Positions 17,450-59,786 of a DNA stretch of 64,000 nucleotides are shown in pieces. A program made the translations under genes and the position numbers. How positions within the stretch are numbered: position 1 is the first letter of the stretch; each line of letters starts with the position of its first letter. The notes beneath the pieces were generated by a model, which saw only the letters and a program-made list of their open reading frames with translations, had not been told where the DNA came from and did no database searches. Origin of the DNA: a virus; IMG/VR virus record IMGVR_UViG_3300045988_154277. One strand, written 5' to 3'.

Positions 17450-19347
17450 TCATTGGGTTGATCTCACCGGATACAACTGGTGCGGATGGCCTAATGTTGT
17501 TGTTATCATAGCGTTTGCTCGTTAGACAAACTATTCTCTACGTTTCCGTAGATGTTCGGACTATCTTTCAATCCTTATGACTAAGGACAACCGGTCTTTG
17601 GAACACACTTGTGTTCTACTCAGCGTTTCAGCATGATAGTCTCTGATCCTTCTTCCTGGTAACAGGAAGCTTGGAAGCTGATATCCCATTATTACTTCAT
17701 AAGAAGTCTGATCCTTAGCACCATGTGGATACATGGCTTTTATTTCAGCATAGATCATATCAATCATTCTTTCTGCTTTCGCGACTATCACGTTCATCCT
17801 TACGGATCCCGTTGTAGTTGATTGATCTCTTAGGGTATCCCAGCCGTTAACACGGTTTATGCAGCCACAGTGTTACCACTATAGCGCCCCCATACACACC
17901 AGTCATGTGTGAGAGGTAGAGCCAAGATACTTTCAACCACCAACTGAGACGGGTGTGCCTTGAGGAGTGCGACAGGCATATTCCGTCCACCTGTTGTCGA
18001 TTTGGTTTCTGTATTCTCCAGTGAGCGAAATCTCTTCGTGAGTACAGTCAGAAGACTATTGTCGTTGCAAATCGTTGGATTCGCACGGAACACGGAGTTC
18101 GCCATCATCCAGCTCTCTCCTTGAGAAGCTGTGGTGACGAATCGTTTCACCGTATCCGGTGTCAATCCTTCGTTCTTCGCATTGATCACTCCGAAAAGCT
18201 TCGTATTGATTGACGACACCAATGGTGCCATCAACTGACTCAACGAACCGATCTTCTTAGAGAACAAGTTCGTCGGTTCGTAACTGACGATCCACCGATC
18301 GATGTTGTAGAACACCTCTCGGAGAAGTTCGTAGATGCCGTTGACTTGGATGCCGATCGTAGCCAACTGATACTGTGCCGGTGGGTCCAGCAAAGTCGCA
18401 GTGGTCTCAAGATGCTTCTCTGCATTGTCGTAGAGCAGCTGAGCATTCGTAGTACTCGGATAGGTGTATTTGCCTAGCACGGTCTTGTAATAGACCGGGT
18501 GGGTCGCTATCAAATCACGTAATCCGAATCTCGTATACTCAGTGAGACACATCAGGTAAGATGCGATCACCCTTCTCTTGAAGAGATCGTCAAGACAGGA
18601 GTTGTGAACCTTAAGGTAGATATCTTCTCTGATCTCGATGTGAGAGTACTCGTTCGACTCTTCCATCTTCGGTACCAAGGAGATCTCTCCAGGCTGAAAC
18701 CCATAATACTGCATCGTCTTATCGAACGATAGTTCGACCAGATGATACAGGATGATTGGGGTAACACCAGCCTTCTTCCCGCGTCCTCTCTTTCCTTGAT
18801 GGATCTTCACTGTGGGTACGATCTCACGACATACTCTGCCGTCAGTCGTTGTGAAGACGAACTGCTCTGATCTTCTGAAAGTCAATGGTGCACGCATGAC
18901 TTTAATGATCAGACCATCTTGGATACGATGAAGACCGCCGCGCTCTACGATGGCGAACATCGGGAAATATTGCGTGTCGGATAGGATCACCGCTCCATGA
19001 TCCAGATAAGGGATACTGATGTGCAGTGGGTATTGCACATTTTCGAACTCGAAGATGAACTTCAACTGTTCGAATGAACTCTTCTGGATTTGGATCTTCT
19101 TCTTCAGGATCGTGTTGTTACGGATATACTCGATACGCTCGTCAGGAGTTAACCGTTGATACCCAATATAACGTAATCGACCTTTGAAAAGCTTTACTGA
19201 TTCTTGGAACATCACATCGAGATAATCAGGTATCTTCTTAATACTGTTCTCTCTGAAGTGAAGGAGGAAGTCGTCGTTGAAATCCGGGAGCAGATCACTT
19301 GCTCCGATCAGGACATTCCTCAGTACTGGATTGAAATGTTCATCCAC
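17450..19347 (-). CDS. RNAP beta subunit N-terminal fragment, interrupted by a group I intron (exon 1 19347..17905, exon 2 17506..17450)
   Basis: LRYIGYQRLTPDERIEYIRNNTILKKKIQ aligns to E. coli beta [43 protein letters not shown] aligns to the fork-loop GANMQRQAVP. Exon 1 ends on codon CAU (ends in U). The ORF-track reading frame runs on into the intron. Confidence 0.6.
17507..17904 (-). ncRNA. Group I intron A (about 398 nt, no ORF)
   Basis: Homologous to the introns at 40872..41286 and 59203..59606. Shares UGAAAUAAAAGC and the GAAA-capped P4/P5 region (GGUCGAAAGAC-like). Has P7-like GAUCAGAGACUA and a UUAGUC partner. Hairpins carry compensatory changes relative to copy B. Ends ...GCUAUG. 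Confidence 0.6.
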
Positions 19348-19375
19348 TTATGCACTCCTCTCTTATGTGTTGTTG

Positions 19376-20528
19376 CTACTTTGCCCCAGTCTTCATTTTG
19401 ACATAAGCTTCCAACAACTTCACGATGCCCCCGATCACTACGGGGACAGAAGCTGCTACTGCTACATGCCACAACTTGATCTGGGACTCCGCTACCTTAT
19501 TGTCTGATATCGTGACGTTGTTGTCCGATATCTTAGACTTCGTTTCAGTCTCTTTGCGTCTGGCGTTGATATCGCCAAGATCCGCTTGCGTCTTATGGTC
19601 TCCGATGATCGTGTTATATTGATCTCGATATCGATCACGTTCTGCAGTTGTCTGCTCTAGCGTGATCTTCAACTTATCACGCTCTACCTTAAGACCCTCG
19701 ATCGTCACTTTATTACGATCTTCGATTTCAGCGGTTACTTGTTTCTCTCGGTTCTTGAGATCTTGTTCTGTGATCTTACGATACTCACGCTTAAATCGTT
19801 GTGCTTCTCTTCTTGATGTTGCGATGGCTAGATTCAGATTGGAATGTAGTTCGATCACATCGACTGGTTCCTTCGGATCTAACATCGCTTCCAACGATTC
19901 TGTATACGTCATCACTTCACCACCTAACGTCATAGTGGTATAGATCGCACATTGATTGGTGATATCGAGTTGATGAGTGATCGGGATCTCAAAGATCTCA
20001 TCGAACATCACACCATACATCACATCTGTGTTCAGTTTCCGGAACGGATCGTTCACTACGAATTGAACCGTAGGACGATCCTCACGGGTTGCACTGATCT
20101 CACTTTCCGCATTGTTCAGCAGTTGGGCGTAGTTCATGCTGCTATACGGGTGGCTCACAAGATCCGCTCGATCACGGAGACAGATCACCACATTCAGTTC
20201 CTGGATGTAGACTTGGAACTCATTGATCAACAGATTCATCGGGATCGAGATCACGTAGCCTTTCATCAAGACCTGAGTACCATCGTCTTTGATGGATTTA
20301 CCAACAACAGAACGGACGGTGATCGTCACCTGCTGACGTCCGAAGAAGTGCATGTTGCCAGAACACTCCGGAGGCAGGTCAGTTCTCTTCCCACTGAAAT
20401 CAATCACACAGAGATTGGTCGTGCTCGTATTCGAATACGAGATCTCCGTGTAATAGTGGGTTCTAGTCGAAGTTAGCGAGCCCAACGCATCCGCTTGTTC
20501 GACCTTGTAGGGGTTGTCGTTGTACATG
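19376..20528 (-). CDS. Hypothetical coiled-coil protein with C-terminal transmembrane helix (about 384 aa, start MYNDNPY)
   Basis: Promoter P3 lies about 44 nt upstream of this ATG. The listed ORF extends further upstream across the promoter and is trimmed here. Confidence 0.5.
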
Positions 20529-20571
20529 GATGATATCCTTTGGTTGATTTGATTGAACATACTTTCTAGTA

Positions 20572-20588
20572 GTAATATATACGTGAAA
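20572..20588 (-). promoter_or_regulatory. Early-type promoter P3 (core TATATATTAC)
   Basis: Motif GTAATATATACGTGAAAG follows terminator 20658-20693. Confidence 0.55.
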
Positions 20589-20657
20589 GTTGGTTCAGCG
20601 AATATCAACCGAACGAAGGACCCATGTATTCCATTGTCTTGAAGATTAGAAATATAT

Positions 20658-20693
20658 TGATCACTACGTGTAGTTAACTACACGTAGTGATCA
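20658..20693 (-). terminator. Terminator hairpin (tgatcactacgtgtag ttaa ctacacgtagtgatca)
   Basis: 16-bp perfect stem 5 nt after stop 20699. Confidence 0.6.
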
Positions 20694-20698
20694 TCACG

Positions 20699-22469: not shown

Positions 22470-25400
22470 TTAGAGGTTGGTATCGAGCATCATCGATTGA
22501 AGGAGTTTACTTCCCACTACAGATGCTCGAGTACGACTATTCGGATCGATCGTATCCAGATCAGCTTCTCCGTTCTCTTCCAACATCCTGCGGAACTCGC
22601 TATACCCGTGGATGTTACCACCACGGATGTTCACCAATTCCTGCATCGTCTTGCTGAGTCCACGAGCAGCGAGGATCTGGATCTCCGGGTTCGTGATGGA
22701 ACAAGCGCGACTGTCACCAGTAACTTGCCCAGTCAACCCATCGATCGTCCGATCATTATCCGGAACTGAAATCTTCTCATCCAAGAACTGTTGTTGTCTT
22801 CGGATGGGGAGTTTCACGAACATATACTTGTTGTCGGTCAGATACTTACGACCAGTTGCACGGTCATACATCCAAACACGTTGGAAGAGATCCAACCCGA
22901 TCATATCACAAGCTTTCAGAAGATCTTCGTTCTGCAAGTTCACGATCATGTTGGGAGCGACGATGTGGAGCTGCCACTTGCCTTCCTTCATGTAGTTCAT
23001 GAACTGATCAAACTCTTTGTCATTCATCTGTCCTATGATCTGACGATACCGTTTGGAGTTCAGTCCGGACGGTTCCATCGTATCACAGAGCTTACAGATG
23101 TAGTCCAAGATCTCCTTCTTTTTCTGAGCGATCTTGGATGATGCGGTTGATGCTTCCATAGAAGAACCTAATTGTTCTGTTGACGATTGAGACTCCGAAT
23201 CAAAAGAAGTACATTCCAATGATTCGACAGCTGGTCCGAACTGTTTTACCATACTTGGATCAAACTTAGTTTCCCAAGTCACAGTGATCTTCTGTTTCGA
23301 AGTGTACTTCAATGGTTCATCATCCACATATCGACACTCACGTTTCGTATCTCCACCACCAAACGTTTTTAACTTAGACTTTACATCATCAGTCAGTTTG
23401 ATAGAGTAAAGATACCCAGTGGATTCACCATGTGTTTCTTTAAACGTCTTTGCGTTGTGATACACAGTGATGTGTTTTGGAATTGTATTAAGTTTGGAGA
23501 CGTCTTGTTTCCAAACATCATAACTCCAATGAATAGAACGATAACCGTGGTTCTCTTCTCCATACAAATCTTGTTTGTTTATGATGAAGATAGAAGCGAT
23601 CCCTTTCAGAGGAGAAAGGAAGATTGACTTCTTATATTGAGAAGCTCGTCCATAACCTTTCAGTTCTGTCAGATCGTTTGGAGATCCATGATAGAGTTCA
23701 TCACCCCATGTTTTCATCTGAGCAGAAGTTAGCTTTTCAGCTGACATCTTCAGCACATCAGTCTTCAAGACCATCAAGTACATCTTCTCTCTAGTTTCTA
23801 CAATCTTGAATCCCATAGACTCATACAGATGACACACCTTCTGGTTCGTCTTGTACGCACAGATGTAGATCTCAGTTGTGATTGGGTTGTGTTTCAGCAC
23901 ATATTGAATCGTAGCAGATACACTCTGCTTACCATAGCCCTTTCCCTGATACTTGGGGAAGATACCGAGATTAAACAAATCCACGGTGTTGTCTTTATAG
24001 AACATCACACCGATCGATCCGATCACCTCTGATCCATGCATCAACAAGAAGAACTGACGTCCTTTCTTCAGATCAGCTTTGACATCACTCGGAGTCCATT
24101 TCTTATAGTCATCTGGATCGTCGTCAATCAGATCAGCTGTATCTGTCACATACTTGACTTCTACCTGATTGGATAGATCCAGTTCCTTCAAAGTAATGGA
24201 ACTAGCTGGTAACGTCAGAGATTCAAGACTTATAGGTAACACTTCCATAGACACATGGACAACATCGCCTTCCAATTCCAGACTGGCTAAAGACTTAGAC
24301 ATCCTTTTTGGTTTCGGGGCTTTCCCTCCAGTCAGTTTTGGATTATGAACGTATTGTACATCCACATTGGTGTAAGTATTTGGTTGTATCCCATTAATAC
24401 TCAAATGATTTGGATCACCAGTGTATCTTAGGATAGTCTTCTTGTCTGATACTGTTTCCGAAAGAAAGTCTTGTGTACAGCGGTTTGTTGGAACTTTGTA
24501 AACATCGACCGACACAGTCTGCGTTGGCTTACAACGATATCTCCAATTAGGTTTTCCAATATCGTTGTATTCAACGATGATCAGAGAGTTGTGAAGATTG
24601 ACCTGTTTTGGTATAATGTTAAACAGAACAGTTCCACGTTTCATATTCCAAGTTGCAGTTTTAGCACCAAGCGCAACAGCATAATTGCTATCTGCACACA
24701 CTAGAATTCTATTCCCTACCTTAGGAAGATCCGTTCCACCTGCTGGAATACCAACGTAAACAGGTTTCCCCTTAACGTCAACCACTTCAACTTCGCCAGC
24801 CTGGACATTAGCTGCCTTTTCCTCTGACACCACGCAATCCTCAGGGATATCCAACGACTCAAAACCACGGAAGAACGCTTTCACGTTCTCACGTTCTTTC
24901 TTATCAACGATCTGATCGAACTGGTCTCCGGACCACTGCATGATATCCTCCATACGGGTTGAGAGGTTCGCTTCCTTGCCGGTATCAAGAACCAGACTGA
25001 TGATTTCACAATCTGTATCCTGACCGATACGGTGCACACGGTCAGATGCCTGCTGATACTCGATCGATCTCCAAGGTTTGTTCAGGAAAATCACTGTGTT
25101 GGCAGCCGTCAAGGTTGCTCCAGTACTCAACATCTTCAAAGATGCGATCAATGGATTCAACGACTGATCCTCTTGGAACCGTTTTACCGTGTTAGTCAGT
25201 TCAGAAGCTGTTTTACCGTATACAGCAAGTGGAGAATACCCTTCCTTCTGGAAGTAGTTATAAGCCAACTCGATCGTATCCACATAAGACGTGAATACAA
25301 CAGTCTTCTTCATGGCATCATCCACATACTGCTTCAGATCAGCAGCTTGCATCATCTCAGAGGTCATCTGCATACGGAGATGTGTCAATAAGGTACCGAT

Positions 25401-29916: not shown

Positions 29917-30237
29917 TCATAACAGTCCGTGAGACTTGACGGTATTCGCTCTTGCGAATGAGAATGGAACACTCATATCTAGATTCGGGATAACTGTCGT
30001 GCTCGCTCTGGACGGTACTTGTTTAACCAGTCCATCATCTCCGCATATAAACGAAGATGGGTTCGCAAGGAAAGTCTTCAGGTCGATCCTGTTACCAGAG
30101 TGATCCGTAATCACATTTTCGGATACAGAACGAACACGAAGACCATTGGTATCTTCAATAGGAGCTTTCTGTGACTCATTGTACACTTCGGCTCTTACAA
30201 CCACGTCGTCTTCATTGACATATACTGCGATACGCAT
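29917..30237 (-). CDS. Hypothetical protein (106 aa)
   Basis: Last gene of the minus-strand structural-looking block. Confidence 0.5.
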   Translation of the reverse strand: MRIAVYVNEDDVVVRAEVYNESQKAPIEDTNGLRVRSVSENVITDHSGNRIDLKTFLANPSSFICGDDGLVKQVPSRASTTVIPNLDMSVPFSFARANTVKSHGLL

Positions 30238-30247
30238 AGTTGCCTCC

Positions 30248-32245: not shown

Positions 32246-32250
32246 GGTGA

Positions 32251-33450
32251 TTAGCCCTTTATATTTTCAATCGCTTTTTCATATGCAGCTAGCTTGACTT
32301 TCAAGCTATCATTCTCTGCGATGAGTTGTTTCATCTCGGTATTGAAGAGTTTGTCGATCAACAGCTCACCAGGTGTATCGTCGATCACTTCCTGTCTGGC
32401 TTGGTTGATACTGTTGTACTCTTCTGTGGTAAGATAGATATCATCGTAGCGGTTGATCTTAACCAGTTCCTTATCCGCTGGGAACTGCTTCCCATCCGCT
32501 TTGATGCCGTATCTCACTTCCAAGAGTTCGGTGAGAAGCATGATCATATCCGTGACCATCTCCAGATCAGAGAAGACTCCAAGATTGATACCTAAGATCA
32601 GTTTGTCATATCGTGCGATGGATCCATCCGGAACTCCATCGACAAAAGACAAAGGTATGTAGATCACGATATCTTCATTCCGTGGATCAACCAACTTGTA
32701 GAACATCGTGTTCTGGAAAGAAGGTTCGTCCTTGTTGTAGACATCCTTAGCAACTCCGATCGGGGCGTACAGATTGTTGTACACGTCGATACCAGACGAC
32801 AACACATCTTTGTAAGAGAGGATCTTATCAACTCGATATACCCCACAGTACACATCGTGATATGGACTGTCTGGATCTCGAGAGTAACCCAACTTCTCAA
32901 AGTCTTTTACGAAGGTGAACCGATAGATCTTCCCAAGGATCAGATTGACTGTATCGTAACGTTGTGTCGTCAACGTGTTGTAGTTGGTCTTGGTCACCGT
33001 CCGGTTGGTCTCAGAGAACCGATAATTCGTGAATGCATTGTAGTACATCACGGACTGCGTTGTGATCAGATCACCTGTCACAGGATCGGTAGATGTGACG
33101 GGTTCACCGACGGTGATCTGGATGTTCGGATCATCGAACGCTGCAAGAGTTGGAGCATTATCCTCTCCGATATCACCTTTCTCCGTATCAACAGCATAGG
33201 TGACATTCCAAGGATCGGTAACTTCTGTTGTCGGTTGATATTCCGAGTAGTAGATTTTGAGACGATCGTACGAAGCGATCACCCATCCTCTACCACTCAA
33301 GTAATATACAACGACCCGTTGATCGAGCTTATCAGCGATACCACTCCACTCTCGGGCATTCCCAGATGTGGAAGGATCAACAACGGTGAGGTTTTGATTG
33401 ACAACAGCGGTTCCGGCTCCTGTAATACGGATACCTCTCTGTTCCATCAA
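32251..33450 (-). CDS. Structural hypothetical protein (399 aa)
   Basis: Tightly coupled within the block. Confidence 0.5.
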   Translation of the reverse strand: MMEQRGIRITGAGTAVVNQNLTVVDPSTSGNAREWSGIADKLDQRVVVYYLSGRGWVIASYDRLKIYYSEYQPTTEVTDPWNVTYAVDTEKGDIGEDNAPTLAAFDDPNIQITVGEPVTSTDPVTGDLITTQSVMYYNAFTNYRFSETNRTVTKTNYNTLTTQRYDTVNLILGKIYRFTFVKDFEKLGYSRDPDSPYHDVYCGVYRVDKILSYKDVLSSGIDVYNNLYAPIGVAKDVYNKDEPSFQNTMFYKLVDPRNEDIVIYIPLSFVDGVPDGSIARYDKLILGINLGVFSDLEMVTDMIMLLTELLEVRYGIKADGKQFPADKELVKINRYDDIYLTTEEYNSINQARQEVIDDTPGELLIDKLFNTEMKQLIAENDSLKVKLAAYEKAIENIKG

Positions 33451-37014: not shown

Positions 37015-38931
37015 TCAATCTAAGATACCGAAGAACGGACCGAACAGACCGATCGGTCGAGCGATGTTCGAAGTCTGAGGATCGTTGAAATAATCCTTGA
37101 GTCGTTCGAATGCAAGCTCCATCGACACAGTTCGGTTGCTGATCACATCTTCCAACTTACCGAACGTCACATGATAGGGATCGGTTACCGTACAGAGTTG
37201 ATAGTTCTGCTGGTTGTCGATCACCAAGTTGTGAAGCACGGTCTCCAGGTGGAAGATCGGGATCGAAGATTTTCGCCAGACGATCTCGCAGAAATCGTTC
37301 AACGCGTGAGGAACACTGTTATAGTTCCCTATCGTAGCGGTCAGGAAGGTCGCTACGCTCTTGGTATACGTGATCATATCATCGTTCATGATGATGAATT
37401 TGAACACGTCCTGCTTCGCATCGAACCCTGCCATCGGTACGATCACACCATCTTCGTCGAACTCCAACTTGTTGTAGTTGGTTCTCATGTGGTCCAGGAA
37501 CGCCTCACTCAGATACGGTACGAACGCATCGTACTCCATCTGGATCGTCTCCACCAGTTCCCCATCTTTCAACAGCTCCAGGTAAGACACCTTACTGAAC
37601 GACTCTGCGATGGGAAGTGTATCCAGGTTCAAGTCAACGATCGGCCCAAGCGCATCACTCGGGATCCGGATCTGATACTTATGGATATGTTTCCCCCACT
37701 TCTGATCGAACAGGATGGAGTTGTTGTTCTTGATGAAATACCTTGCAGCACTTTCCGTCAAGTTGTAGATGAGCGAGTTGGTGTTGATCAGGTGTTTCGC
37801 CGACAACACTTTCTGTGATACAGTGGATGATACCTTCGTAGAGCACAGCAGTCCGATATGGATCCCATGTGGAAGATACTTGATCAACCGATCCTTCCCA
37901 TATCCAGCACAGTGTTCACACATCCCGTCCAGATGGTTGCACCCGAACTGAGAGATCATGTTCACTGTTTGACCAACGTATCGATCGATGACGTTCATGT
38001 TGCTGAGAGCGACCCTTCGTCCATCATCGATGATGATCTTGTTGATGAAGTTCTTGGCATACTCTGGTTTGATCGTCATCGGGATCACGTTGTGATCGGA
38101 TCCACAATTTCCAGGATGAACCGTCTGTACCGTGGAACAACCGAGTCTCATCTTCCTTCCGAAATACTGAGACTTCTTGATCACATCTCGTGAGAAGAAG
38201 ATGGACTTCTTCGCTGAGAGGGATTCGGTTGCGAACTCCACCGGTGATTTCAACCCACTGAAGGATGAGGATGAGATCACGAACTTCCGCATCGTATCAT
38301 CGATGTCCGACCGAGGTCCATATGCCAGCAGCATCTGTGGGATCTGGTTGGTCTTCAGAACACCAGCTTGGATGTAGTGATACAGCACGTTGTTCGGAGT
38401 CTTCGGATCTTTCAAGATCTTCAGAAGTTCCTTCCCATCCTGTCTCAGCTGAGCTTCCGCAACCTGAGTACCCCACTTCGGATCGTAGACCTTATCAGCC
38501 AGTTCCTTGATCGGAGGATACTCCAACAGTTGCGTCAAGCTCAGACCATCGATAGATGGCATGTACTCACCCAACTCCGTTGTGATGAAGTTGTAGATCC
38601 TCGATACATTCCGGAAGATCTTGTGGACCATGAGCATGTGGTCCACGTCTGGACGCTCATCCAAAAACCGATCATAGATGATACTGTAGATCTTACTGCT
38701 ACTATCGCTGGAGATACTCTTGATATTGAACGTCTCCTTGATCGTTGGTAAGATCCCGAAGTACATCAACGGTTCCCAGTACAGGATATTCAGGATCGCC
38801 ATGCGTGTAGGCATCTGAACACTCTTGTTGTCTCCAAGAACCAGTTTACACATCCCACGATCTTGATGTGTCTGACGAAGTTGATCGGCATAACCGGCTT
38901 GGGTATACTGATCTGGTGTTAATACAAGCAT
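37015..38931 (-). CDS. RNAP beta-prime subunit C-terminal fragment (638 aa)
   Basis: NVLYHYIQAGVLKT aligns to bridge-helix NVLQYFISTHGARKG. GCSTVQTVHPGNCG aligns to trigger-loop GEPGTQLTMRTFHIGG. Start overlaps the stop of the beta C-terminal gene (ATGA). Confidence 0.5.
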   Translation of the reverse strand: MLVLTPDQYTQAGYADQLRQTHQDRGMCKLVLGDNKSVQMPTRMAILNILYWEPLMYFGILPTIKETFNIKSISSDSSSKIYSIIYDRFLDERPDVDHMLMVHKIFRNVSRIYNFITTELGEYMPSIDGLSLTQLLEYPPIKELADKVYDPKWGTQVAEAQLRQDGKELLKILKDPKTPNNVLYHYIQAGVLKTNQIPQMLLAYGPRSDIDDTMRKFVISSSSFSGLKSPVEFATESLSAKKSIFFSRDVIKKSQYFGRKMRLGCSTVQTVHPGNCGSDHNVIPMTIKPEYAKNFINKIIIDDGRRVALSNMNVIDRYVGQTVNMISQFGCNHLDGMCEHCAGYGKDRLIKYLPHGIHIGLLCSTKVSSTVSQKVLSAKHLINTNSLIYNLTESAARYFIKNNNSILFDQKWGKHIHKYQIRIPSDALGPIVDLNLDTLPIAESFSKVSYLELLKDGELVETIQMEYDAFVPYLSEAFLDHMRTNYNKLEFDEDGVIVPMAGFDAKQDVFKFIIMNDDMITYTKSVATFLTATIGNYNSVPHALNDFCEIVWRKSSIPIFHLETVLHNLVIDNQQNYQLCTVTDPYHVTFGKLEDVISNRTVSMELAFERLKDYFNDPQTSNIARPIGLFGPFFGILD

Positions 38932-41388
38932 TATACTTCCTCCTCGACTTCTTCGACCTCGAACCCGACGGCTGCCAGCTGGTGTTTGAAGATCCCGATG
39001 TTACTGGCACCATCGATCATCTCTTCTGTAGACATCCCGAGATCGTAGATCCCGCTGGGTTTATCAGCCGTCAGCAACAGATACTGGAGTCGATCGATCG
39101 CTGCAGGAGAGTTGCTGTATGTACACAGTAATCTCACAGCCATCTTCGCACCACAACACATCGTAAGAATAGCGGTCTCATCCTCACCATATCGGATCGG
39201 TGTTTGACCGAACATACTCTGTGCTTTCAGACTCTTGCTGTTGGGTTTGATCGGAGATAGGAACTGACTCTGATATCCGAACTCGATGCAGTTCAACTGG
39301 TCGATCGGGATCTTACCGAGCAGGTGGATATAGAGTTCTCCACAGAGAGCATCCGTACAGGTCTTCACCTGTTTCTTACCACCTTTCCCATCTTTGGCGT
39401 TGTAAGTAACCGGAGTTCTCCGGATCCCATACTTCTTCGCCAATCGATCGATCATCTCAGGACTGATGCTGTCACAGAACGGAGGGATCACCATAAAGAT
39501 CCCGTGTTTCTTGCAGCTGTCCACGAACTCATCTTCATAGTTCTTGGTCTTCTCACGAACATACTGCGCGAACACAGGTCTTACCTCTTGGAGATAATCG
39601 AGGATATACTCATATTGAGCTTCGATCGAACTCCACTGTTGAGTCCAGAGATTCCGCACAACCACATCAGAGACATAGTTGATATATTGTTCGTAATACT
39701 GACCACCATTCAGACGGTTGAACGGAGATGCACCTGTGATCAAGATACTGGCTCTGGTTCCATCCTCCATCGTCGGCATATCTTCATCTTCCCAGATGTC
39801 CGAGATCACACCTTTGTTACCAGCGTTACCAACCAGCTTGTAACCACGGTCGACTTCCCGCTGATAAGCATAAGTGATCTTAACTCGGATGAAGTCAACC
39901 GGTTCCTTCTTATTCATCAGGAACATGGACTTCCCACCTCTCCAGTAACTCCAACCTTTACAGCTGGTTACCAGAGTGTTGAACGCAGGAGTAACCTCAC
40001 GTCCTTCTCGTTTCATCTGCTCATACACATCAACGATAGCCGTCCAATAGGTGTGATACTGATCCTGATACTGCATCAGCTGGGCGTATGCTGTATCAGA
40101 ACTCAGCTCTGGATACTTCTTGTGGTTCGTGAAAATCTCAACATCGATCACAGTTGCACCGGCTTCTGCTCGATAGAGATCATCGTGGAACTCCTCTGCA
40201 CGACGGAGCTTCTCATCGGTCATATCCGTTAAGAACGAACTCTTGTTCTGTTTCCGGAATCCGATCAGGATCCCATCTTCACGGATCTGTTCACCGATTT
40301 CAGGGAACGTCTTATACTCGTTCTCCCCACCGTACAGATTCAGAGGGATGTCGTCGATCTTGACATCGATCGTCACACTGTCGATCACCGTGTGTGAGAG
40401 TTGTTTCTGAAGGCTTCTGCTGATCACGAATGCGTCTTCTGTGGTAGCCCACAGAGGAAGATATGCGACGTTGGCATTCACTCCCATCTTGTACAACCCA
40501 TCTTCGTGATTCGGAGATGTAACGAACTTCGTTGTTTGACTGACCAGACGTCCTTCTTGCAGCTGGTCAAAGTTCATCTGTTTGTTGATGTATCCGAATC
40601 CGCTATACAGTTCGGTATAACTGTCGACTTCGAAATACCCAACTTTACCATCTTCTGCTCCGATGTAGATCACAGTGAGACTGGGGTTGTTCTTGATCTT
40701 CTGAAGACCTGCGTTGACTCGGAACTTCGGGATCACAGCGACGATCTGTACGTCCTGATCTCGAGTACTTTTGTCAAATTCATATTTTCCGATCTTCGTC
40801 TCGTAGCCGGACTGGATCCGTGCTGTCTGACACCCATCCACCACCATCATCTGCGGGGCATTTGAGGAGAGCATTCTTTATGTTCAACCGAGTGCGTTAC
40901 TTCTCGGCCCGCAGCATTACCTGCTCCGCTTATAGATTTGCTATAAGAACAGACTATATCTCACTCCTTACTGAGTAAGGAGAACCTCCATTTCCACCCA
41001 CTTGGGTGTACATTTAGTCGTTGATCTTTCTTCTCAGAGAGAAGCTTAGAAGCTGATTTCCCATTGTTCGTTATCACACGATAACGACATCCCTTAGCAC
41101 CGTGTTGTTACACACAGCTTTTATTTCAGCATAGGACATTCTAATCATTCTTTCTGTCTTTCGACCGCGTTCACGCTTACCCTTGCGAGTTACGTTGTAG
41201 CTGATTAGACTTTAGTGGATCCCAGACCGTTAGAAGGTTGATTTCACCACTACATTACTGTAATAGCGCCCAATGTTGTTTAGGCCACGTTGCGAACTGA
41301 TGAACTGTAAGAAAGGTGAAAGGAGCGCAGGCGTTCCTGTCAATTCCGGTCTTACATTTAGATCTGATACAAATTGCGATGTCTTCAC
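38931..41388 (-). CDS. RNAP beta subunit C-terminal fragment, spliced (exon 1 about 41388..41287, exon 2 40871..38931)
   Basis: GNAGNKGVISDIWEDEDMPTMEDGTRASILITGASPFNRLNGGQYYEQ aligns to beta GRHGNKGVISKI...PSRMNIGQ. QSMFGQTPIRYGEDETAIL aligns to GGQRFGEMEVWAL. The listed ATG at 40874 is the last three nt of the intron. Exon 1 has a GTG start with AGGAGG 7 nt upstream and ends on CGU. Confidence 0.65.
40872..41286 (-). ncRNA. Group I intron B (about 415 nt, no ORF)
   Basis: Contains P7/P8/P7-prime as UCAACGACUAAAUG / CACCCAAGUGGGUG / GAUAUAGUCU. The P4/P5 region GCGGUCGAAAGACAGAAAG is near-identical to the beta-prime intron. P9 hairpins are present. Ends ...AAGAAUG. Confidence 0.65.
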
Positions 41389-48707: not shown

Positions 48708-48708
48708 A

Positions 48709-54157: not shown

Positions 54158-54280
54158 TAGAATCCTCCTTGGGTTGATGGGTATAACTTGTTTGTCCTTG
54201 TGATATATTAAGAGTGACATCATACAACAACGACGATCTACATTGACCAGATCAGACATCAGGGTAGAATTGGGAGAACG

Positions 54281-54421
54281 TTAGTTAGTTACAACACTCT
54301 TCTTAGAGAAGAGTTGTCGTCTTAATTCTCGCAGATATGCTTCTTTTGCTCTGACACGAGTCATGACCTCGTCCATATGCTGAGAAGCACTCTTACTTGA
54401 ATTAGCGTAAGAGAACGCCAT
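54281..54421 (-). CDS. Small protein (46 aa, MAFSYANSSKSASQHMDEV...), member of a tandem small-gene family
   Basis: Below the ORF-track cut-off; found by manual translation. RBS GGAGGTGATCGAT. Paralogous to the next three small genes. Confidence 0.5.
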   Translation of the reverse strand: MAFSYANSSKSASQHMDEVMTRVRAKEAYLRELRRQLFSKKSVVTN

Positions 54422-54581
54422 ATCGATCACCTCCAGTCTAACCGTTCAGGTACGAATGAACGGATAAGTTCGGTTAGATCAGATCTGTATGTTGTTGTAT
54501 GAGTCACTTAAATTCAAAGAGTGATAGGAAATGTTACGGCAGTTGTTGACCAGACAAGACATCAACAACCGAGTTCACTGG

Positions 54582-54728
54582 TTATTTCTGTGGATGCTTG
54601 ACGATCCATCTTCTCCAATCTAAGTTAGACTGGTTAGGATGTCTTTGCATTACAGATTGCATGTGTTCTGAAGCTGTCGGTGGGACTAATACTTCAGGAT
54701 GTTTAGCATCGATGTATGCAAATGCCAT
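54582..54728 (-). CDS. Small protein (48 aa, MAFAYIDAKHPEVLVPPTASEHMQSV...)
   Basis: Manual translation. RBS GAAGGAGGTGAGCTCT. Confidence 0.5.
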   Translation of the reverse strand: MAFAYIDAKHPEVLVPPTASEHMQSVMQRHPNQSNLDWRRWIVKHPQK

Positions 54729-54894
54729 AGAGCTCACCTCCTTCTACCACAAACAGGGAACTGTCTTTGTGGTGTGACAGGTTGGAGCATGTCTGTAATA
54801 CACCTCCTATCACTTAAATTCAAAAGAGTGATGGGTTGTAGATGTGCGAAAATCACCAACCAGATCAGTCATCGGTGATTTGTGTCACGTACGA

Positions 54895-55068
54895 TCATTG
54901 AGCGATAGCAACACTCGATGCTTTTGACGTGAGTTTTGCATCAATAACACGTGTTTGCTTAAGAGCATTGCGCTCCCAGCGTTGACGATCACGTGCTTCT
55001 TGTTCAGCAACACACTTGTATCCGGCATTCGGATCTAAGATGCGTTTGAAGAACTCATCTGAGGTCAT
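54895..55068 (-). CDS. Small protein (57 aa, MTSDEFFKRILDPNAGYKCVAEQ...)
   Basis: Manual translation. RBS TAGGAGGTGATGTCAT. Confidence 0.45.
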   Translation of the reverse strand: MTSDEFFKRILDPNAGYKCVAEQEARDRQRWERNALKQTRVIDAKLTSKASSVAIAQ

Positions 55069-55547
55069 ATGACATCACCTCCTAACTACTGTAGATTAAA
55101 CAGTCTTGCAGTAGGACTGGTTATAAGAGTCAGTAACAGAACCTCTCTCCTTCAGGTGAGGGATGTATGTTACTACGAACTATTCTTCCGTTGGACGTTA
55201 GTCCATCGTGATGTAATAGAAGGACAGTATGCTAAGAACATATGGTTAAAATGTTCTTGTTGCCTGGAACAGGCCATCGACGTAAGTCGGTGTACTCGGT
55301 AACACGAGGAAGCTCCTTCCTTCAGGTAGGAGTAGTTCACGTTCAGATCTGTAGTCACCTACCATCCATCACTCGTCTTATCGAAAAAGAGACAGCTAAG
55401 GGATGAAGGATACAACTCCTTCATCCCTTAGCTAATCGTGTATTCGAAGTATAACTCTACACACGTTGGATATAGTAAGAACAACACTTCACAGTTGTCG
55501 AAACAACATCGACCAGATCAGTCATCGATGTTGAATTGTACTCACAT

Positions 55548-55745
55548 CTAAGTGGTTAACATTGCCACGATAGATGGCGTTTTAGTTGGTTTGTTGCTGT
55601 GATATATTCCGTAGTGTTTACGGAGCATATCCATCAACATCTTCTGCTTAGCTTTGGCACGTGCTACACGAGCATCATGCATTTCAGAAGCAGATTTAGG
55701 AGATAGCACGGTTGGGTGCTTCTCATCCATCATCGCAAACGGCAT
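55548..55745 (-). CDS. Small protein (65 aa, MPFAMMDEKHPTVLSPKSASEMHDARV...)
   Basis: RBS TAGGAGGTGATTTGT. Shares MxFA...KHPxVL...ASExH with the 54582 gene. Confidence 0.5.
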   Translation of the reverse strand: MPFAMMDEKHPTVLSPKSASEMHDARVARAKAKQKMLMDMLRKHYGIYHSNKPTKTPSIVAMLTT

Positions 55746-55846
55746 ACAAATCACCTCCTAACTACCGACTCAAGCACAAGTGAGTCGATCAGCTTGGTTG
55801 GATCAGATCTGTAAAACTATGAAGTGTTGTTCAATACAAACAAGTT

Positions 55847-55886
55847 AGCTAGGGATAGTGGAGTGTTCGCCTCCACTATCCCTAGC
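55847..55886 (-). terminator. Terminator hairpin (17-bp stem agctagggatagtggag)
   Basis: Follows the lysozyme stop at 55893. Confidence 0.55.
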
Positions 55887-55892
55887 TGGTTA

Positions 55893-56527: not shown

Positions 56528-56562
56528 TATCTAGGTATGGGATAACTACCCATACCTAGATA
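56528..56562 (-). terminator. Terminator hairpin (tatctaggtatggg...cccatacctagata)
   Basis: 14-bp stem after stop 56575. Confidence 0.6.
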
Positions 56563-56574
56563 CGTTGAAATGTA

Positions 56575-57567: not shown

Positions 57568-57601
57568 GATGTTGTTTCCTTTTGATGATACATTGTAATT
57601 A

Positions 57602-57611
57602 CCCCCCCCCC
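57602..57611. repeat. C10 homopolymer tract (G10 on the minus strand) in a divergent intergenic region
   Basis: accccccccccgcag. Confidence 0.8.
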
Positions 57612-57686
57612 GCAGAGGGAGAGAAGGGTAAGTGATAATACGAGTAAAAGCCCTCTGTATACCATTGTTTCTTGAGGGTATCCCAG

Positions 57687-57696
57687 CATGGTATGC
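57687..57696 (+). promoter_or_regulatory. Candidate second-class promoter element CATGGTATGC, 33 nt upstream of the beta-prime ATG
   Basis: See 27661..27670. Confidence 0.35.
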
Positions 57697-57729
57697 ACTC
57701 TGATATACACTACACTGAAGGAGGTATTT

Positions 57730-59786
57730 ATGGCTTTAGATCCAGTACGCATCTGGCTGATGGATGTGCCTAAATTCATACGAGAGAATAAATGTCAACC
57801 TGTAACATCCGTCTTCATCCGTGAGACCACAACGAATGAATTTAAACACGATGGGTTGTTCTCAGAAGACATCTTCGGTCAGATCAATACTCCGGAGCGG
57901 TTGATCCGGTTCGGATATGTCGATCTTCGGACGAAGATCCTACATCCGCTCATCTACATCGATATCGTGAAGCTGAAGGCTTTCTATGGAGAGATCATGG
58001 CTCGGAAAGCTTATGCCGTGTTCAATCCAGAGACCAAAGAGTTCATTCGTGCATCGGAAGAAGACGAAGATGCTGATACAGGGTATCAGTTTTTCATGAG
58101 TCATTTGGATGATTTGAAGTTCGAGAAGAACAAGTCCTTGAAACACAACGAGATGGTTGATGTGATCGAGCGACACCAAGGCAAGTTGACATTGGAACAA
58201 TGCCTTGTGATGCCAGCTGGATTACGAGACCTTAGAGAAGACGAAGGTAAACCAGCTGCAGATAGTATCAACAAACTCTACTCTTCTCTGATCAACTACA
58301 CACTGGCTCTTCCCACTACCAAGACTACGTCTGATATTTATGACAATGTCAGGTTCTCGATCCAGAAGAAAGTCTCTGAGATCTATCAGTATCTATTCGA
58401 TATGATCGAAGGGAAGTTCGGGTTCTTCCAGAGGAAGTACGGTTCTCGTAACCTTGCATTGGGTACTCGTAATGTGGTATCCACAGCATCCATGGCTGCG
58501 TTATCACCAGATGATCCTCAGTATCTGAAAATGGATGAGATCAAGATCCCACTCTTCCAGTTATGCAAGATGTTCACTCCGTTGATCATCTACAACATCC
58601 GGATGCTATTCCTGAACGAAGTGTTCCATATCACATCGGACCAGGTTGCTTTGATCGATCCAGAAACCAATAACTTGGTCTACCAGCCGATCGATGAGGA
58701 TGAGAAGAGTCGGTTCCTCTCATCGGAAGGGATCGAGAAGATGATCGATCTTTTCAGGGATCCTGAGTTCCGGTTCACTCCTGTTGTGGTATACAACGAA
58801 GAGGGCAAAGGATATTACCTCTACATGGTCTACGATGATACGGAAGTGATCTACTTGACGAGAAGCGTCAGTGAAGTGATCAACAAGATCAAGGATAAAG
58901 TAGGTGTCTACGATCCTCAGAAACTGAGACCTCTCACTTATGCTGAGATGTTCTACATCGCAGCGTATCGTGCTACTTACGACAAGACTTCATTGATCAC
59001 ACGATATCCTGCCATCGAAGTAGGATCTGAAGTACCGAATCGTGTACATCTGATCTCAACGAACCCTGCAAGGAAGATCAATCTGTTCTCTACGATGGAT
59101 GATGATAACTGGATCATGCTTCCAGAGTATCCGATCATCAACAATACCTTTGTGGATAGTCTGATCCCGCATCCACAGATCTTAGGAGGGTTAGGGATGG
59201 ATTCGCTAAACAGTCGAAGTCCCGCTATCGGGTAACCGGTGGTGACAAGAAAGTGAATTGCTGGAAACATCTAAGAGCTAGTTTGGCTACAGCGTGATCC
59301 GAAAGGATGAATGCGATATGCGGTCGAAAGACAGAAAAAACAAACTAGATGACCTATGGTGAAATAAAAGCTTGTATGTACCACACCAACATACAGGTCC
59401 TAAAGGTTGATGCTTCTATATGAAGCGGAACAATGTGCAATCAGCAGCTAAGCTTATAGATAACTCTCTGAGTCGCTATGAGAAAGTTCATCGACTAGGT
59501 GCTCCCACCCGAGCGATTGGGTGGATGGTATAGTCAGGCCGCTAATGAAGATTAGTGGGTAAACGTATGTAAGTTATTGATATTCAATGAGTTACAACGG
59601 AAGATGTTTGATGGCGACACAGCCTCGTCCAATGGTGTATTGAGCAAACAAGCCAACCAAGAAGTCAATGAGTATTTGGATTCAATAGGACGTTACATCC
59701 ACAGTAACGGAAAATTGATGCACGGTACCACTGACTTGATCAAATTGACGATCTTCAACTTATCGAGAGATCCTGTTCTCGTTTAA
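57730..59786 (+). CDS. RNAP beta-prime subunit N-terminal fragment, interrupted by a group I intron (exon 1 57730..59202, exon 2 59607..59786; about 550 aa spliced)
   Basis: RBS AGGAGG 7 nt before the ATG at 57730. FKHDGLFSEDIFGQ aligns to PERDGLFCARIFGP. LVMPAGLRDLREDEGKPAADSINKLYSSLINYTLAL aligns to [39 protein letters not shown]. Joining ...GLGMD (exon 1, ends in U) to FDGDTASS... (exon 2) recreates the catalytic NADFDGD motif. Exon 2 continues HSNGKLMHGTTDLIKLTIFNLSRD, matching [25 protein letters not shown]. Confidence 0.7.
59203..59606 (+). ncRNA. Group I intron in the beta-prime gene (about 404 nt, no ORF)
   Basis: P7/P8/P7-prime present as UCGACUAGG / CCCACCCGAGCGAUUGGGUGG / GGUAUAGUCAGG, matching the phage group I R/S consensus. 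GAAA-capped helices AUCCGAAAGGAU and GGUCGAAAGAC. P9 is CGCUAAU-GAAG-AUUAGUG. The 5-prime exon ends in U and the intron ends in G (AAGAUG). Confidence 0.75.

What the first reader, a model, noticed from the sequence alone, without database searches (positions are those of the whole stretch)
17450..59786. A family of three ORF-less group I introns confined to RNAP subunit genes
All three introns share about 60-70% identity in core helices, with compensatory substitutions in hairpins. Examples are uuccugGUAAcaggaa versus uucucAGAgagaa, and ccauguGGAUacaugg versus guguUGUUACacac. Each lies in a different fragment of a split multisubunit RNAP (beta-N, beta-C, beta-prime-N), all at highly conserved catalytic-region sequence. 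I recall phiKZ gp71-73 as a beta-N gene joined by splicing an HNH-encoding intron; here the introns are about 400 nt with no endonuclease. That raises the question of how they spread, for example a trans-acting homing endonuclease elsewhere in the genome. It also raises the possibility that splicing is used as a regulatory checkpoint for RNAP assembly.
Basis: inference. Interest (0 to 1): 0.8.

Follow-up and report, generated by a model that had tools for sequence, protein, structure and literature searches.

The report
Three ORF-less group I introns in phage RNAP genes
Three related self-splicing group I introns, none carrying an endonuclease gene, interrupt three RNA polymerase subunit genes of an uncultured phiKZ-like jumbo phage at conserved active-site motifs; they are real, but they belong to a widespread and already known kind of phage intron.

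Summary
The window comes from a distant phiKZ-like jumbo phage (about 30% aa identity to known ones). It holds three homologous group I introns with no ORF: I1 17490-17913(-), I2 40876-41281(-), I3 59203-59606(+). Removing them restores colinear, conserved proteins:
- I1: nvRNAP beta-N, ..ILALP|PSAPVVSGEINP.
- I2: nvRNAP beta-C, ..SSQRGL|MLSSNAPQ.
- I3: vRNAP beta'-N, ..GLGMD|FDGD, the catalytic Mg site.

Each intron has a U.G 5' splice site in P1, a contiguous P10, a terminal G, the P7/J8-7 consensus and P2-P9 helices. Covariation is strong, both among the three and across 35 family members. Only I3's P3 is weak.

They are not a private family. The same intron family occurs in many IMG/VR phage contigs, in RNAP beta', nrdD, topoisomerase, DNA polymerase and terminase genes. 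Its 3' core matches the HNH-bearing phiKZ gp56 and gp72 introns. ORF-less introns in jumbo-phage RNAP genes already exist: PhiPA3 gp065, and probably 201phi2-1 gp273/274.

No homing endonuclease gene is in the window. The three introns are only about 63% alike, so they are not recent copies. Verdict: new members of a known kind. The regulatory and trans-homing ideas remain untested.

The parts
17914..19347 (-). Exon 1 of the nvRNAP beta-N gene (host of I1); ends ..HPSQLVVESILALP
   Evidence: phrog_2943 'polymerase' E=1.6e-45. tblastn hits include 'putative nvRNAP beta subunit 1' of Erwinia phage RAY. Translation.
17490..17913 (-). Intron I1, 424 nt. 5' splice site after U17914, terminal G at 17490. 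It has P7.1 and P7.2 hairpins. An alternative splice pair (U17912 with G17491) is also in frame but gives no P10 and one extra residue.
   Evidence: Homology to I2 and I3. P1 CCU/GGG and P10 CCAU/AUGG read from the sequence. The junction is colinear with Halocynthia phage JM-2012 and Bacillus phage BpSp homologs. MFE z-score -4.1. Rfam does not detect it.
17374..17489 (-). Exon 2 of nvRNAP beta-N (PSAPVVSGEINPMIQVDMETGFFIIPSWYKEISHVFD*)
   Evidence: The 80%-relative phage has the same exon 2.
41282..41388 (-). Exon 1 (35 codons, GTG start with a GGAGG ribosome-binding site) of the nvRNAP beta-C gene; ends ..SPFLQFISSQRGL
   Evidence: Colinear with intron-less LucasX and PhiPA3 gp065 N-termini.
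40876..41281 (-). Intron I2, 406 nt. P1 GCCU/GGGC, P10 AAUG/CAUU (IGS 41268-41275). P3 AACCUUC/GGAGGUU. P7 GACUA (41015-41019) / UAGUC (40952-40956). One P7.2-like hairpin. Terminal G at 40876.
   Evidence: RF00028 36.5 bits, E=1e-5. The MFE fold recovers P1, P2, P3, P8 and P9. Covariation.
38931..40875 (-). Exon 2 of nvRNAP beta-C (MLSSNAPQ...)
   Evidence: PF00562 RNA_pol_Rpb2_6 E=1.3e-18 on the spliced protein. Homolog of phiKZ gp71-73 and PhiPA3 gp065.
57730..59202 (+). Exon 1 of the vRNAP beta'-N gene (MALDP...GGLGMD). An upstream in-frame ATG at 57688 is also possible.
   Evidence: tblastn gives about 30% identity over 95-99% of the length to phiKZ gp180-type proteins such as PhiPA3 gp212. 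Alignment.
59203..59606 (+). Intron I3, 404 nt. P1 GGAU/GUCC and P10 UUUGA/UCGAA (IGS 59214-59222). P7 GACUA (59493-59497) / UAGUC (59531-59535). P8 59505-59524 with a GCGA loop. No P7.1 or P7.2. P3 is only weak and irregular (GAAAGU 59249-59254 with GUGCUC 59499-59504). Terminal G at 59606.
   Evidence: RF00028 38.9 bits, E=2e-6, with non-canonical marks in P3. MFE z-score -5.1. P3 analysis. Coordinates.
59607..59786 (+). Exon 2 of vRNAP beta'-N (FDGDTASSNGVLSKQ...); it carries four of the five residues of the catalytic DFDGD motif.
   Evidence: The intron-less relative L128 reads GLGADHDGDTAS continuously.
17736..17752 (-). Family signature UAUGCUGAAAUAAAAGC in the P5 extension of I1. The same element is at 41117-41133 (-) in I2 and 59355-59371 (+) in I3. 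UAUGS pairs with SCUAAG downstream, which resembles an 11-nt GNRA-tetraloop receptor followed by an A-rich bulge.
   Evidence: 3 matches, 0.41 expected. The C-G/G-C covariation of the closing pair is columns 229/290 (CG 18, GC 15, AU 2). The receptor reading is my inference from the known CCUAAG...UAUGG motif.

Best explanation
These are three bona fide self-splicing group I introns with no endonuclease gene. They are transcribed as part of three RNA polymerase subunit mRNAs of a phiKZ-like jumbo phage: nvRNAP beta-N, nvRNAP beta-C and vRNAP beta'-N. In each, an internal guide sequence pairs with the last 3-4 exon-1 bases (P1, with a U.G wobble at the cleavage site). The adjacent guide bases pair with the first 4-5 exon-2 bases (P10). 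Exogenous guanosine bound at P7 attacks the 5' splice site, and the terminal G then occupies the same site for exon ligation. Ligation rebuilds codons in conserved catalytic-region motifs, including the Mg-binding DFDGD of beta'. A large P5 extension, with a tetraloop-receptor-like motif and conserved GAAA loops, probably stabilises the core so that no protein cofactor is needed. What is shown: identity, structure, junctions, homology, absence of an ORF, and presence or absence among relatives. What is inferred: splicing activity, and the origin of the introns. As to origin, they are most likely descendants of endonuclease-driven (HNH-type) homing into conserved RNAP sequence that later lost the endonuclease ORF. 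They are now inherited vertically and kept because imprecise loss would destroy an essential active site.
For: Rfam RF00028 matches I3 at E=2e-6 and I2 at E=1e-5. I1 is homologous to both. P1, P10 and the terminal G were read from the sequence at junctions that restore colinear proteins. Covariation among the three: 89.4% of cells paired versus 36-39% for slid controls, and 33 double-sided pairs versus 1-6. Covariation in the 35-member family: 95.3% versus 27-40%, score 0.656 versus 0.05-0.10, 0 of 500 shuffles. P3 next to P8 covaries across the family. A homologous family member reaches 60.7 bits and PhiPA3 gp065 reaches 79.2 bits, both above the Rfam gathering score. Against the 93-97% relative contig, all 9 differences at paired positions keep the pair, and the exons stay under purifying selection at 97-100% aa identity. 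There is no ORF. No endonuclease domain was found in 40 window ORFs. HNH-bearing relatives exist: an HNH_3 ORF beside tandem family introns in a beta' gene (L054), and the phiKZ gp56 and gp72 introns share the 3' core (E 1e-15 to 1e-17). Site occupancy varies among relatives: the I3 site is empty in two relatives, and the I1 site carries a different intron 6 nt away. Spliced gp71-73 is a subunit of the purified and solved phiKZ nvRNAP (PMC8287921).
Against: No RNA or protein data exist for this phage, so splicing is inferred. All Rfam scores are below the gathering cut-off of 50, and I1 is not detected at all. I3 has no convincing P3: four pairs, two of them wobbles, around a 2x2 loop. ONT-cappable-seq did not see splicing of the predicted phiKZ introns under the conditions tested (PMC10914365). 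HEG loss is a historical inference. Only 64 kb of a genome of at least about 200 kb was visible, so a trans-acting endonuclease cannot be excluded.
Confidence: 0.88

Rival explanations
1. The introns are still mobile. They would be moved in trans by a free-standing homing endonuclease encoded elsewhere in the genome (collaborative homing), rather than being immobile relics.
For: Occupancy of the I1 and I3 sites differs among related phages. An HNH_3 ORF lies directly beside ORF-less family introns in L054. Free-standing endonucleases are abundant in intron-rich huge phages (PMC12880540).
Against: No HNH, GIY-YIG or LAGLIDADG domain was found in 40 ORFs of the window. The three target sites share no sequence, so one enzyme could not serve all three. 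Intron and flanking exons diverge about equally from the close relative (95-97% versus 91-97%), so there is no sign of recent transfer.
Confidence: 0.15
2. The three copies arose inside this genome by ectopic transposition, either by reverse splicing into new RNAP mRNAs followed by reverse transcription and recombination, or by illegitimate recombination. This would make them a lineage-specific paralogous family targeted at RNAP genes.
For: I1 and I2 are each other's nearest relatives in a rough NJ tree (63%) and both sit in nvRNAP genes. Each guide sequence matches its own exons, as reverse splicing requires.
Against: The 63% identity is barely above the 55-60% seen with introns from unrelated contigs. 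I3 is closer to an intron of another phage (L130) than to I1 or I2. Peripheral architecture differs between the three: P7.1 plus P7.2 in I1, one hairpin in I2, none in I3. The beta' DFDGD region is hit independently in many phages, including phiKZ gp55/56 and L085. No reverse transcriptase was seen in the window.
Confidence: 0.07
3. Splicing is used as a regulatory checkpoint, with splicing efficiency changing during infection and gating RNAP assembly. This is an added function, not an alternative identity.
For: All three hosts are polymerase subunits needed at defined stages. I3's weak P3 could make its splicing conditional. Condition-dependent splicing of phage group I introns has been reported (Sandegren and Sjoberg 2007, cited in PMC10914365).
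Against: There is no direct evidence. Family members sit in many unrelated essential genes, which fits selfish targeting of conserved sequence rather than regulation. Close relatives manage without the I3 intron.
Confidence: 0.08
4. They are not introns. They would be intergenic or UTR/terminator modules between further-split RNAP fragments that are translated separately.
For: phiKZ-type RNAP subunits are already split. An ATG lies at the very start of exon 2 of I2 (40872-40874) and at the last three bases of I3 (59604-59606).
Against: Neither ATG has a usable Shine-Dalgarno sequence, and exon 2 of I1 has no start codon. The catalytic DFDGD would be divided between two polypeptides. The exons are colinear with single ORFs in intron-less homologs. 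The group I core, the P1/P10 register and the covariation would be left unexplained.
Confidence: 0.02

Closest known systems
phiKZ group I introns carrying HNH endonucleases in RNAP genes (gp55/gp56 and gp71/gp72/gp73), and the PhiPA3 gp211/gp210/gp209 intron (Birkholz et al. 2024, PMC11620839)
   Same: They are group I introns in split RNAP subunit genes of phiKZ-like jumbo phages, at catalytic motifs. The 3' core (P6-P7-P3'-P8-P7') of the gp56 and gp72 introns matches the family HMM at E 1e-15 to 1e-17. The phiKZ gp55 intron sits at N|ADFDGD, two codons from the I3 site D|FDGD, but in the paralogous beta'-N gene. By my reading of the RpoB motif, the PhiPA3 gp210 intron lies after the conserved DD of the beta motif EHDDANRALMG, and I2 lies five codons further on in the nvRNAP paralog.
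   Different: Those introns carry a 300-330-aa HNH ORF; ours carry none. The insertion sites are not identical: the phiKZ/PhiPA3 nvRNAP beta intron is at our residue ~389 (GNKGV|IS), not at the I2 site. The P5 extension with the UAUGSUGAAAUAAAAGC signature is not detected in them.
ORF-less introns in jumbo-phage RNAP genes: PhiPA3 gp065 (nvRNAP beta), and the intron in 201phi2-1 gp273/274 (vRNAP beta; PMC11512511), whose ORF-less state I infer
   Same: PhiPA3 gp065 has a roughly 450-nt gap between protein matches with no ORF, and scores 79.2 bits on RF00028. The 201phi2-1 intron is supported by proteomics and two spliced reads. That it lacks an ORF is my inference from the adjacent gene numbers; the paper does not state it.
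   Different: They sit at different insertion sites. PhiPA3's intron is smaller and lacks the P5-extension signature. It is annotated only as a 'fragment' misc_feature.
Classical phage group I introns with P7.1/P7.2, which I recall being classed as subgroup IA2: T4 td/nrdB/nrdD, SPO1/SP82 DNA polymerase, Staphylococcus phage Twort and K
   Same: They show the same habit of interrupting conserved motifs of essential nucleic-acid-metabolism genes. I1 and I2 carry P7.1/P7.2-type hairpins between P7 and P3'. blastn finds the P4-P5-extension segment at 73-85% identity in Staphylococcus, Enterococcus, Lactococcus, Listeria, Aeromonas and Klebsiella phage genomes. Family members also sit in nrdD near the glycyl-radical region.
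   Different: Subgroup assignment was not tested with subgroup-specific models. I3 lacks P7.1 and P7.2. The T4 introns carry, or once carried, GIY-YIG or HNH ORFs.
Abundant ORF-less group I introns of huge gut 'Jug' phages (PMC12880540)
   Same: Many short introns without an internal endonuclease split essential genes of very large phages. Endonucleases there are mostly stand-alone genes. Splicing was confirmed by metatranscriptomics for 37 of 76 predictions.
   Different: Those were reported mainly in terL, nrdD and DNA polymerase genes, with an average length of about 206 nt. Ours are about 400 nt, in RNAP genes, in a phiKZ-like lineage.

Membership tests
Group I self-splicing intron | 5' splice site follows a U that forms a U.G wobble in P1 with an internal guide sequence near the intron's 5' end | tested here: met
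   I1 CCU|CU with GGGGG. I2 GCCU|AA with UUGGGC. I3 GGAU|UCG with CGA(A)GUCC. Read from the sequence. The I1 site is ambiguous by 2 nt.
Group I self-splicing intron | The last intron nucleotide is G (omega-G), and P10 pairs the 3' exon start with guide bases next to P1 | tested here: met
   Terminal G at 17490, 40876 and 59606. P10 is CCAU/AUGG (I1), AAUG/CAUU (I2) and UUUGA/UCGAA (I3), each contiguous with P1 on the guide.
Group I self-splicing intron | Conserved catalytic core: P4-P5-P6 domain, P3-P8 domain, and P7 (guanosine site) with the J8/7 consensus, P3 and P7 forming a pseudoknot | tested here: met
   P4, P5, P6 and P7 (GACUA / A-UAGUC, as in the RF00028 consensus) are present in all three. 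P3 next to P8 is good in I1 and I2. In I3 it is weak: four pairs around a 2x2 loop. So the feature is met for I1 and I2 and only marginally for I3's P3.
Group I self-splicing intron | Helices supported by covariation | tested here: met
   Family alignment A6: 95.3% of cells paired versus 27-40% slid, 436 versus 50-82 double-sided cells, 0 of 500 shuffles. Three window copies: 89.4% versus 36-39%. Caveat: the structures were derived by RNAalifold on the same alignments. R-scape was not available.
Group I self-splicing intron | Operational criterion: Rfam RF00028 score at or above the gathering cut-off (50 bits) | tested here: not met
   I3 38.9 bits, I2 36.5 bits, I1 no hit even in a 521-nt search. 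This is a sensitivity limit, not a defining property. The homologous family member L028 scores 60.7 bits and PhiPA3 gp065 scores 79.2 bits.
Group I self-splicing intron | Removal restores an uninterrupted, conserved host reading frame | tested here: met
   Colinear with intron-less homologs at all three junctions.
Group I self-splicing intron | GTP-dependent self-splicing and ligated exons in vivo | not testable with these tools
   No transcriptome or biochemistry is available for this uncultured phage.
Mobile (homing) group I intron | Intron-encoded homing endonuclease ORF (HNH, GIY-YIG, LAGLIDADG, etc.) | tested here: not met
   Longest stop-free runs are 48 codons (I2), 42 codons (I3) and 103 codons (I1; no Pfam hit, overlaps the conserved core).
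Subgroup IA (phage-type) group I introns | Extra P7.1/P7.2 hairpins between P7 (5' strand) and P3 (3' strand) | tested here: inconclusive
   I1 has two hairpins there, I2 has one and I3 has none. Subgroup-specific covariance models were not available.

The most novel reading that the evidence does not exclude
In a phage that probably transcribes inside a protein-shell nucleus without coupled translation, endonuclease-free introns could have been retained in subunits of both polymerases because splicing efficiency times or gates polymerase assembly. I3's crippled P3 might need a phage factor. The introns might also be re-mobilised in trans by an endonuclease elsewhere in the genome and act as weapons or barriers between co-infecting relatives, as shown for PhiPA3 gp210.
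Probability: 0.08. Interest if true: 0.65.

Novelty: new member of a known kind. Interest (0 to 1): 0.3.

Why it matters
Correct annotation matters first. Three essential RNAP subunit genes of this uncultured jumbo phage would otherwise be called truncated or fragmented, as happened to PhiPA3 gp065. The catalytic DFDGD motif of the virion polymerase would be missed because it lies in a 59-codon second exon.

The data also show that the codons around the beta' Mg-binding motif are a recurrent landing pad for different selfish elements:
- I3 at D|FDGD.
- phiKZ gp55/56 at N|ADFDGD.
- A tandem pair of introns in L085.
- An unexplained in-frame 196-aa insert in an 80%-identical relative.

The 17-nt signature retrieves many members of one large phage intron family that the general Rfam model mostly misses, which is useful for metagenome annotation. 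None of this changes the current understanding of group I introns.

Tried and rejected
- Megablast of 5 kb against 50,697 phage records gave no match, so the phage is new at the DNA level.
- Rfam at gathering threshold gave nothing in the window.
- tblastn with only the C-terminal 135 aa of the I1 host gave no match. The full protein was needed.
- My first hand-derived splice coordinates were off by 1-6 nt and were corrected by script.
- For I1, the pair U17912/G17491 was rejected in favour of U17914/G17490. Only the latter gives a P10 and a residue count colinear with homologs.
- A second reading frame for exon 2 of I1 (..LHPHQLYPVRSTQ*) was rejected by alignment.
- A covariance model of the whole intron was not built, because 476 columns exceed the 400-column and time limits. 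nhmmer profiles were used instead.
- P1 and P3 could not be scored on the MAFFT alignments because the strands are out of register. P3 was therefore checked per sequence by duplex folding.
- The in-frame insert in the relative L126 was tested as an intein, with no support: no Pfam, NCBIfam or PDB sequence match.
- ORF 61037-62002, absent from the close relative, was tested as a possible endonuclease. Pfam and PHROGs gave no hit and no motif was seen by eye.
- The idea that the introns are more conserved than their exons, which would suggest recent transfer, was not supported.

Full report
**What the window is.** Megablast finds no near relative among 50,697 phage records. Protein searches place the window in a distant phiKZ-like jumbo phage. 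The I3 host gene matches phiKZ gp180-type virion RNAP beta'-N proteins at about 30% identity over 95-99% of its length. The I2 host gene carries PF00562 RNA_pol_Rpb2_6 (E=1.3e-18) and matches phiKZ gp71-73 and PhiPA3 gp065. It is followed, as in phiKZ, by a gp74-like beta' fragment (phrog_3015, E=2.7e-87) and a helicase. The I1 host gene matches phrog_2943 (E=1.6e-45) and the 'putative nvRNAP beta subunit 1' of Erwinia phage RAY. Other ORFs hit phiKZ gp28, gp29, a tail-tube protein and an internal-head-protein family. An IMG/VR contig (3300045988_142450, 197 kb) is 93-97% identical in DNA. Contig 3300045988_163688 is about 80% identical in protein, and 2061766007_000586 about 52%.

**The observation.** Three non-coding inserts interrupt these genes. 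They align with 68% mean column identity. Rfam RF00028 (group I intron) matches two of them below its gathering score: 59198-59557(+) at 38.9 bits, E=2e-6, and 40929-41292(-) at 36.5 bits, E=1e-5. The third is missed by Rfam even in a local search, but it is plainly homologous to the other two. Two nhmmer profiles find exactly three copies in the 64 kb.

**Splice junctions.** Homolog alignments and P1/P10 pairing give the following.
- I3 is 59203-59606(+). It joins ..GGLGMD|FDGDTAS. Xoo-sp14, PhiPA3 gp212 and the 52% relative read G(A)D(F/H)DGD without interruption.
- I2 is 41281-40876(-). It joins ..SSQRGL|MLSSNAPQ, colinear with LucasX and PhiPA3 gp065.
- I1 is 17913-17490(-). It joins ..ILALP|PSAPVVSGEINP, colinear with Halocynthia phage JM-2012 and Bacillus phage BpSp. 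The alternative pair 17912/17491 is also in frame, but it gives one extra residue and no P10.

In each intron the guide sequence pairs with the end of exon 1, including a U.G at the splice site. The adjacent guide bases pair with the first 4-5 bases of exon 2, and the intron ends in G. By my own reading of bacterial RpoB and RpoC motifs, the sites correspond to beta HPSHYGRxCPIETP|EG (I1), beta EHDDANRAL|MGANMQRQ (I2) and beta' NAD|FDGD (I3).

**Structure.** RNAalifold on the three copies recovers several elements:
- P2, with a conserved base CGCUAU/GUGGYG, a covarying tip and a GUAA loop.
- P4, P5 and P6/P6a.
- A roughly 150-nt branched P5 extension.
- P7 (GACUA/UAGUC), P7.2, P8 and P9.

Of 94 pairs, 37 change on both sides. 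Counting on that structure gives 89.4% paired cells versus 36-39% when partners are slid, and 33 double-sided pairs versus 1-6. MFE z-scores are -5.1, -2.7 and -4.1. The I2 MFE fold itself contains P1, P2, P3, P8 and P9. P3 and P7 form the expected pseudoknot. P3 is AACCUUC/GGAGGUU in I2 and AACCG(U)G/CCGGUU in I1.

In I3, and in its nearest relative L130, only GAAAGU/GUGCUC can be drawn: four pairs, two of them wobbles, around a 2x2 loop. Rfam marks the same region as non-canonical. This is the one weak point of the core.

Peripheral elements differ between the three. I1 has P7.1 and P7.2, I2 has one such hairpin and I3 has none.

**A large family.** The 17-nt motif UAUGNUGAAAUAAAAGC occurs in all three introns (3 matches versus 0.41 expected). 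Of these, 72 contain nhmmer-significant homologs, many of them 330-450 nt and therefore ORF-less. On a 35-sequence alignment, 41 of 51 consensus pairs show double-sided changes. There, 95.3% of cells pair versus 27-40% slid, the covariation score is 0.656 versus 0.05-0.10, and no shuffle in 500 reaches the observed values. P7 itself covaries (GACUA, GAGCA, GAUCA, GAGUA). P3 adjacent to P8 is found with quite different sequences in most members. One family member scores 60.7 bits on RF00028, above the gathering score. The signature resembles the 5' half of an 11-nt tetraloop receptor (UAUGG...CCUAAG) followed by an A-rich bulge. Its closing pair switches C-G/G-C 18:15. That functional reading is my inference.

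**Relationships among the three.** On well-aligned columns, I1 and I2 are 63% identical and are mutual nearest neighbours. I3's nearest neighbour, also at 63%, is the intron of the 80% relative at the I1 locus. Introns from unrelated contigs reach 55-60%. So the three are ordinary members of the family, not recent duplicates.

**Host genes of family members.** Upstream peptides show hosts in RNAP beta' (PF00623), nrdD-like, topoisomerase II/GyrB-like, family B DNA polymerase-like, DNA polymerase III alpha (PF07733), terminase-like and RecA-like genes. About 21 of 75 hits are in multisubunit RNAP genes. 'Confined to RNAP genes' therefore holds only for this window.

**Presence and absence in relatives.**
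- The 93-97% relative has I2 and I3 at the same sites. The introns are 95-97% identical and the exons 91-97%. All 9 differences at paired positions keep the pair.
- The 80% relative has no intron at the I3 site. It carries instead a 196-codon in-frame insert after MDFDG(N), starting CLIGSTRV. That insert has no Pfam, NCBIfam or PDB sequence match.
- At the I1 locus the 80% relative has a different, smaller family intron, 6 nt downstream (LPPSS|PVVTGEINP), with its own matching P1 and P10.
- The 52% relative is intron-less at the I3 site.

**Endonucleases.** None of 40 window ORFs shows an HNH, GIY-YIG or LAGLIDADG domain. Endonuclease-bearing relatives do exist. In L054 an HNH_3 ORF (E=1.8e-7) lies directly beside three tandem family introns in a beta' gene. 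The phiKZ gp56 and gp72 HNH genes are each followed by a 3' core that matches the family profile at E 1e-15 to 1e-17.

**Comparison with what is known.**
- phiKZ gp55 is interrupted at ..KAPN|ADFDGDQ, two codons from the I3 site, in the paralogous gene.
- The phiKZ and PhiPA3 nvRNAP beta genes are interrupted at our residue ~389 (GNKGV|IS), not at the I2 site.
- In PhiPA3 that intron is ORF-less and scores 79.2 bits on RF00028, yet the gene is annotated only as a 'fragment'.
- The literature already records HNH-bearing introns in phiKZ and PhiPA3 RNAP genes and a competitive role for PhiPA3 gp210 (PMC11620839, PMC12908238).
- It records a spliced intron in 201phi2-1 vRNAP gp273/274 (PMC11512511).
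- It records about 18 ORF-less group I introns per genome in huge gut phages (PMC12880540).
- It records failure to see splicing of the phiKZ introns by ONT-cappable-seq under the tested conditions (PMC10914365).
- Spliced gp71-73 is nevertheless a subunit of the purified and solved nvRNAP (PMC8287921).

**Mechanism and origin.** The best-supported account is ordinary group I self-splicing that restores three essential polymerase subunits. The introns were most likely installed by endonuclease-mediated homing into conserved sequence, and the ORF was lost later. The first part rests on structure and junction evidence. The second is inference from HNH-bearing relatives, variable site occupancy and the absence of any endonuclease nearby. 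Trans-homing, reverse-splicing spread and regulated splicing cannot be excluded with 64 kb of DNA, and nothing here favours them. The alternative that these are intergenic modules between further-split subunits is very unlikely: there are no usable start sites, the DFDGD motif would be divided, and the covarying ribozyme core would be unexplained.

**Verdict.** The finding is real and correctly interpreted in its essentials. It adds new members to a known kind, so interest is modest.

Noticed in passing
L126 4465-5070 (IMGVR_UViG_3300045988_163688, the 80%-identical relative); corresponds to window 59607-59615: At the I3 locus the relative has no intron. Instead, a continuous 196-codon in-frame insert lies inside the catalytic motif: MDFDG-N-[CLIGSTRV...VNDGVVVY]-D-TASSNG. 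It looks intein-like at its start (Cys) but ends YD|T rather than HN|T. It has no Pfam, NCBIfam or PDB sequence match.
   Followed up: partly
L130 4436-4769 (same relative); corresponds to window ~17484: At the I1 locus the relative carries a smaller (~330 nt), divergent intron of the same family, inserted 6 nt downstream of the I1 site (LPPSS|PVVTGEINP). It has its own matching P1 (GUCU/GGAC) and P10 (CCAG/CUGG). It is the nearest relative of I3, not of I1.
   Followed up: partly
L132 1186-2520 (phiKZ gp55-gp56) and L085 rc 840-1620: The beta' DFDGD codons are a recurrent target. phiKZ gp55 is split at N|ADFDGD by the gp56-HNH intron. An IMG/VR phage (L085) has two tandem family introns, at about ..STGMN| and ..DHD|GDT.
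   Followed up: partly
L003 4129-4581 (PhiPA3 gp065, NC_028999 ~55002-55454): PhiPA3's nvRNAP beta gene contains an ORF-less group I intron (RF00028 79.2 bits) at the site where phiKZ has the gp72-bearing intron. The record annotates the gene only as a misc_feature 'fragment'.
   Followed up: partly
window 61073-62019: ORF 61037-62002 (-), 321 aa, is absent from the 93-97% identical contig, a clean ~947-bp indel. It has no Pfam or PHROG hit and no endonuclease motif seen by eye.
   Followed up: partly
window 17603-17911 (-), inside I1: A 103-codon stop-free run (77 aa from its first ATG) overlaps the conserved intron core. It has no Pfam hit, and I2 and I3 have stops in the equivalent frame. 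It is probably chance.
   Followed up: partly
window 14519-14556, 15503-15543, 15565-15602, 55394-55433, 55847-55887, ~59800-59835: Perfect hairpins with 15-19-nt arms and 0-7-nt loops lie between genes. Several share AGCTA(A)GGGAT-like arms, which looks like the phage's bidirectional terminator style. The one at 15.5 kb caused a spurious mir-5881 Rfam match on both strands.
   Followed up: no
window 54260-55892: A 1.6-kb stretch has no ORF longer than 77 aa on either strand and contains two of the perfect hairpins. No Rfam match was found there.
   Followed up: no
window 22470-27623 (-): A 1717-aa ORF fuses DUF5662, an SNF2/ResIII helicase core and a GNAT acetyltransferase domain.
   Followed up: no
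window 30146-32254 (+) and 30248-32245 (-): Two almost fully overlapping long ORFs (702 and 665 aa) lie on opposite strands. Neither has a Pfam hit, so which one is the gene is unresolved.
   Followed up: no
L054 1062-3121 (IMGVR_UViG_3300045988_175426): Three tandem family introns plus an HNH_3 ORF are packed into the NRxP...DFDGD region of a beta' gene. These are the closest non-self relatives of the window introns (131 bits). A tRNA gene lies nearby (431-501).
   Followed up: partly
L049 2575-2651: A RAGATH-18 RNA (67 bits, above the gathering score) lies in a viral contig that also carries two family introns.
   Followed up: no
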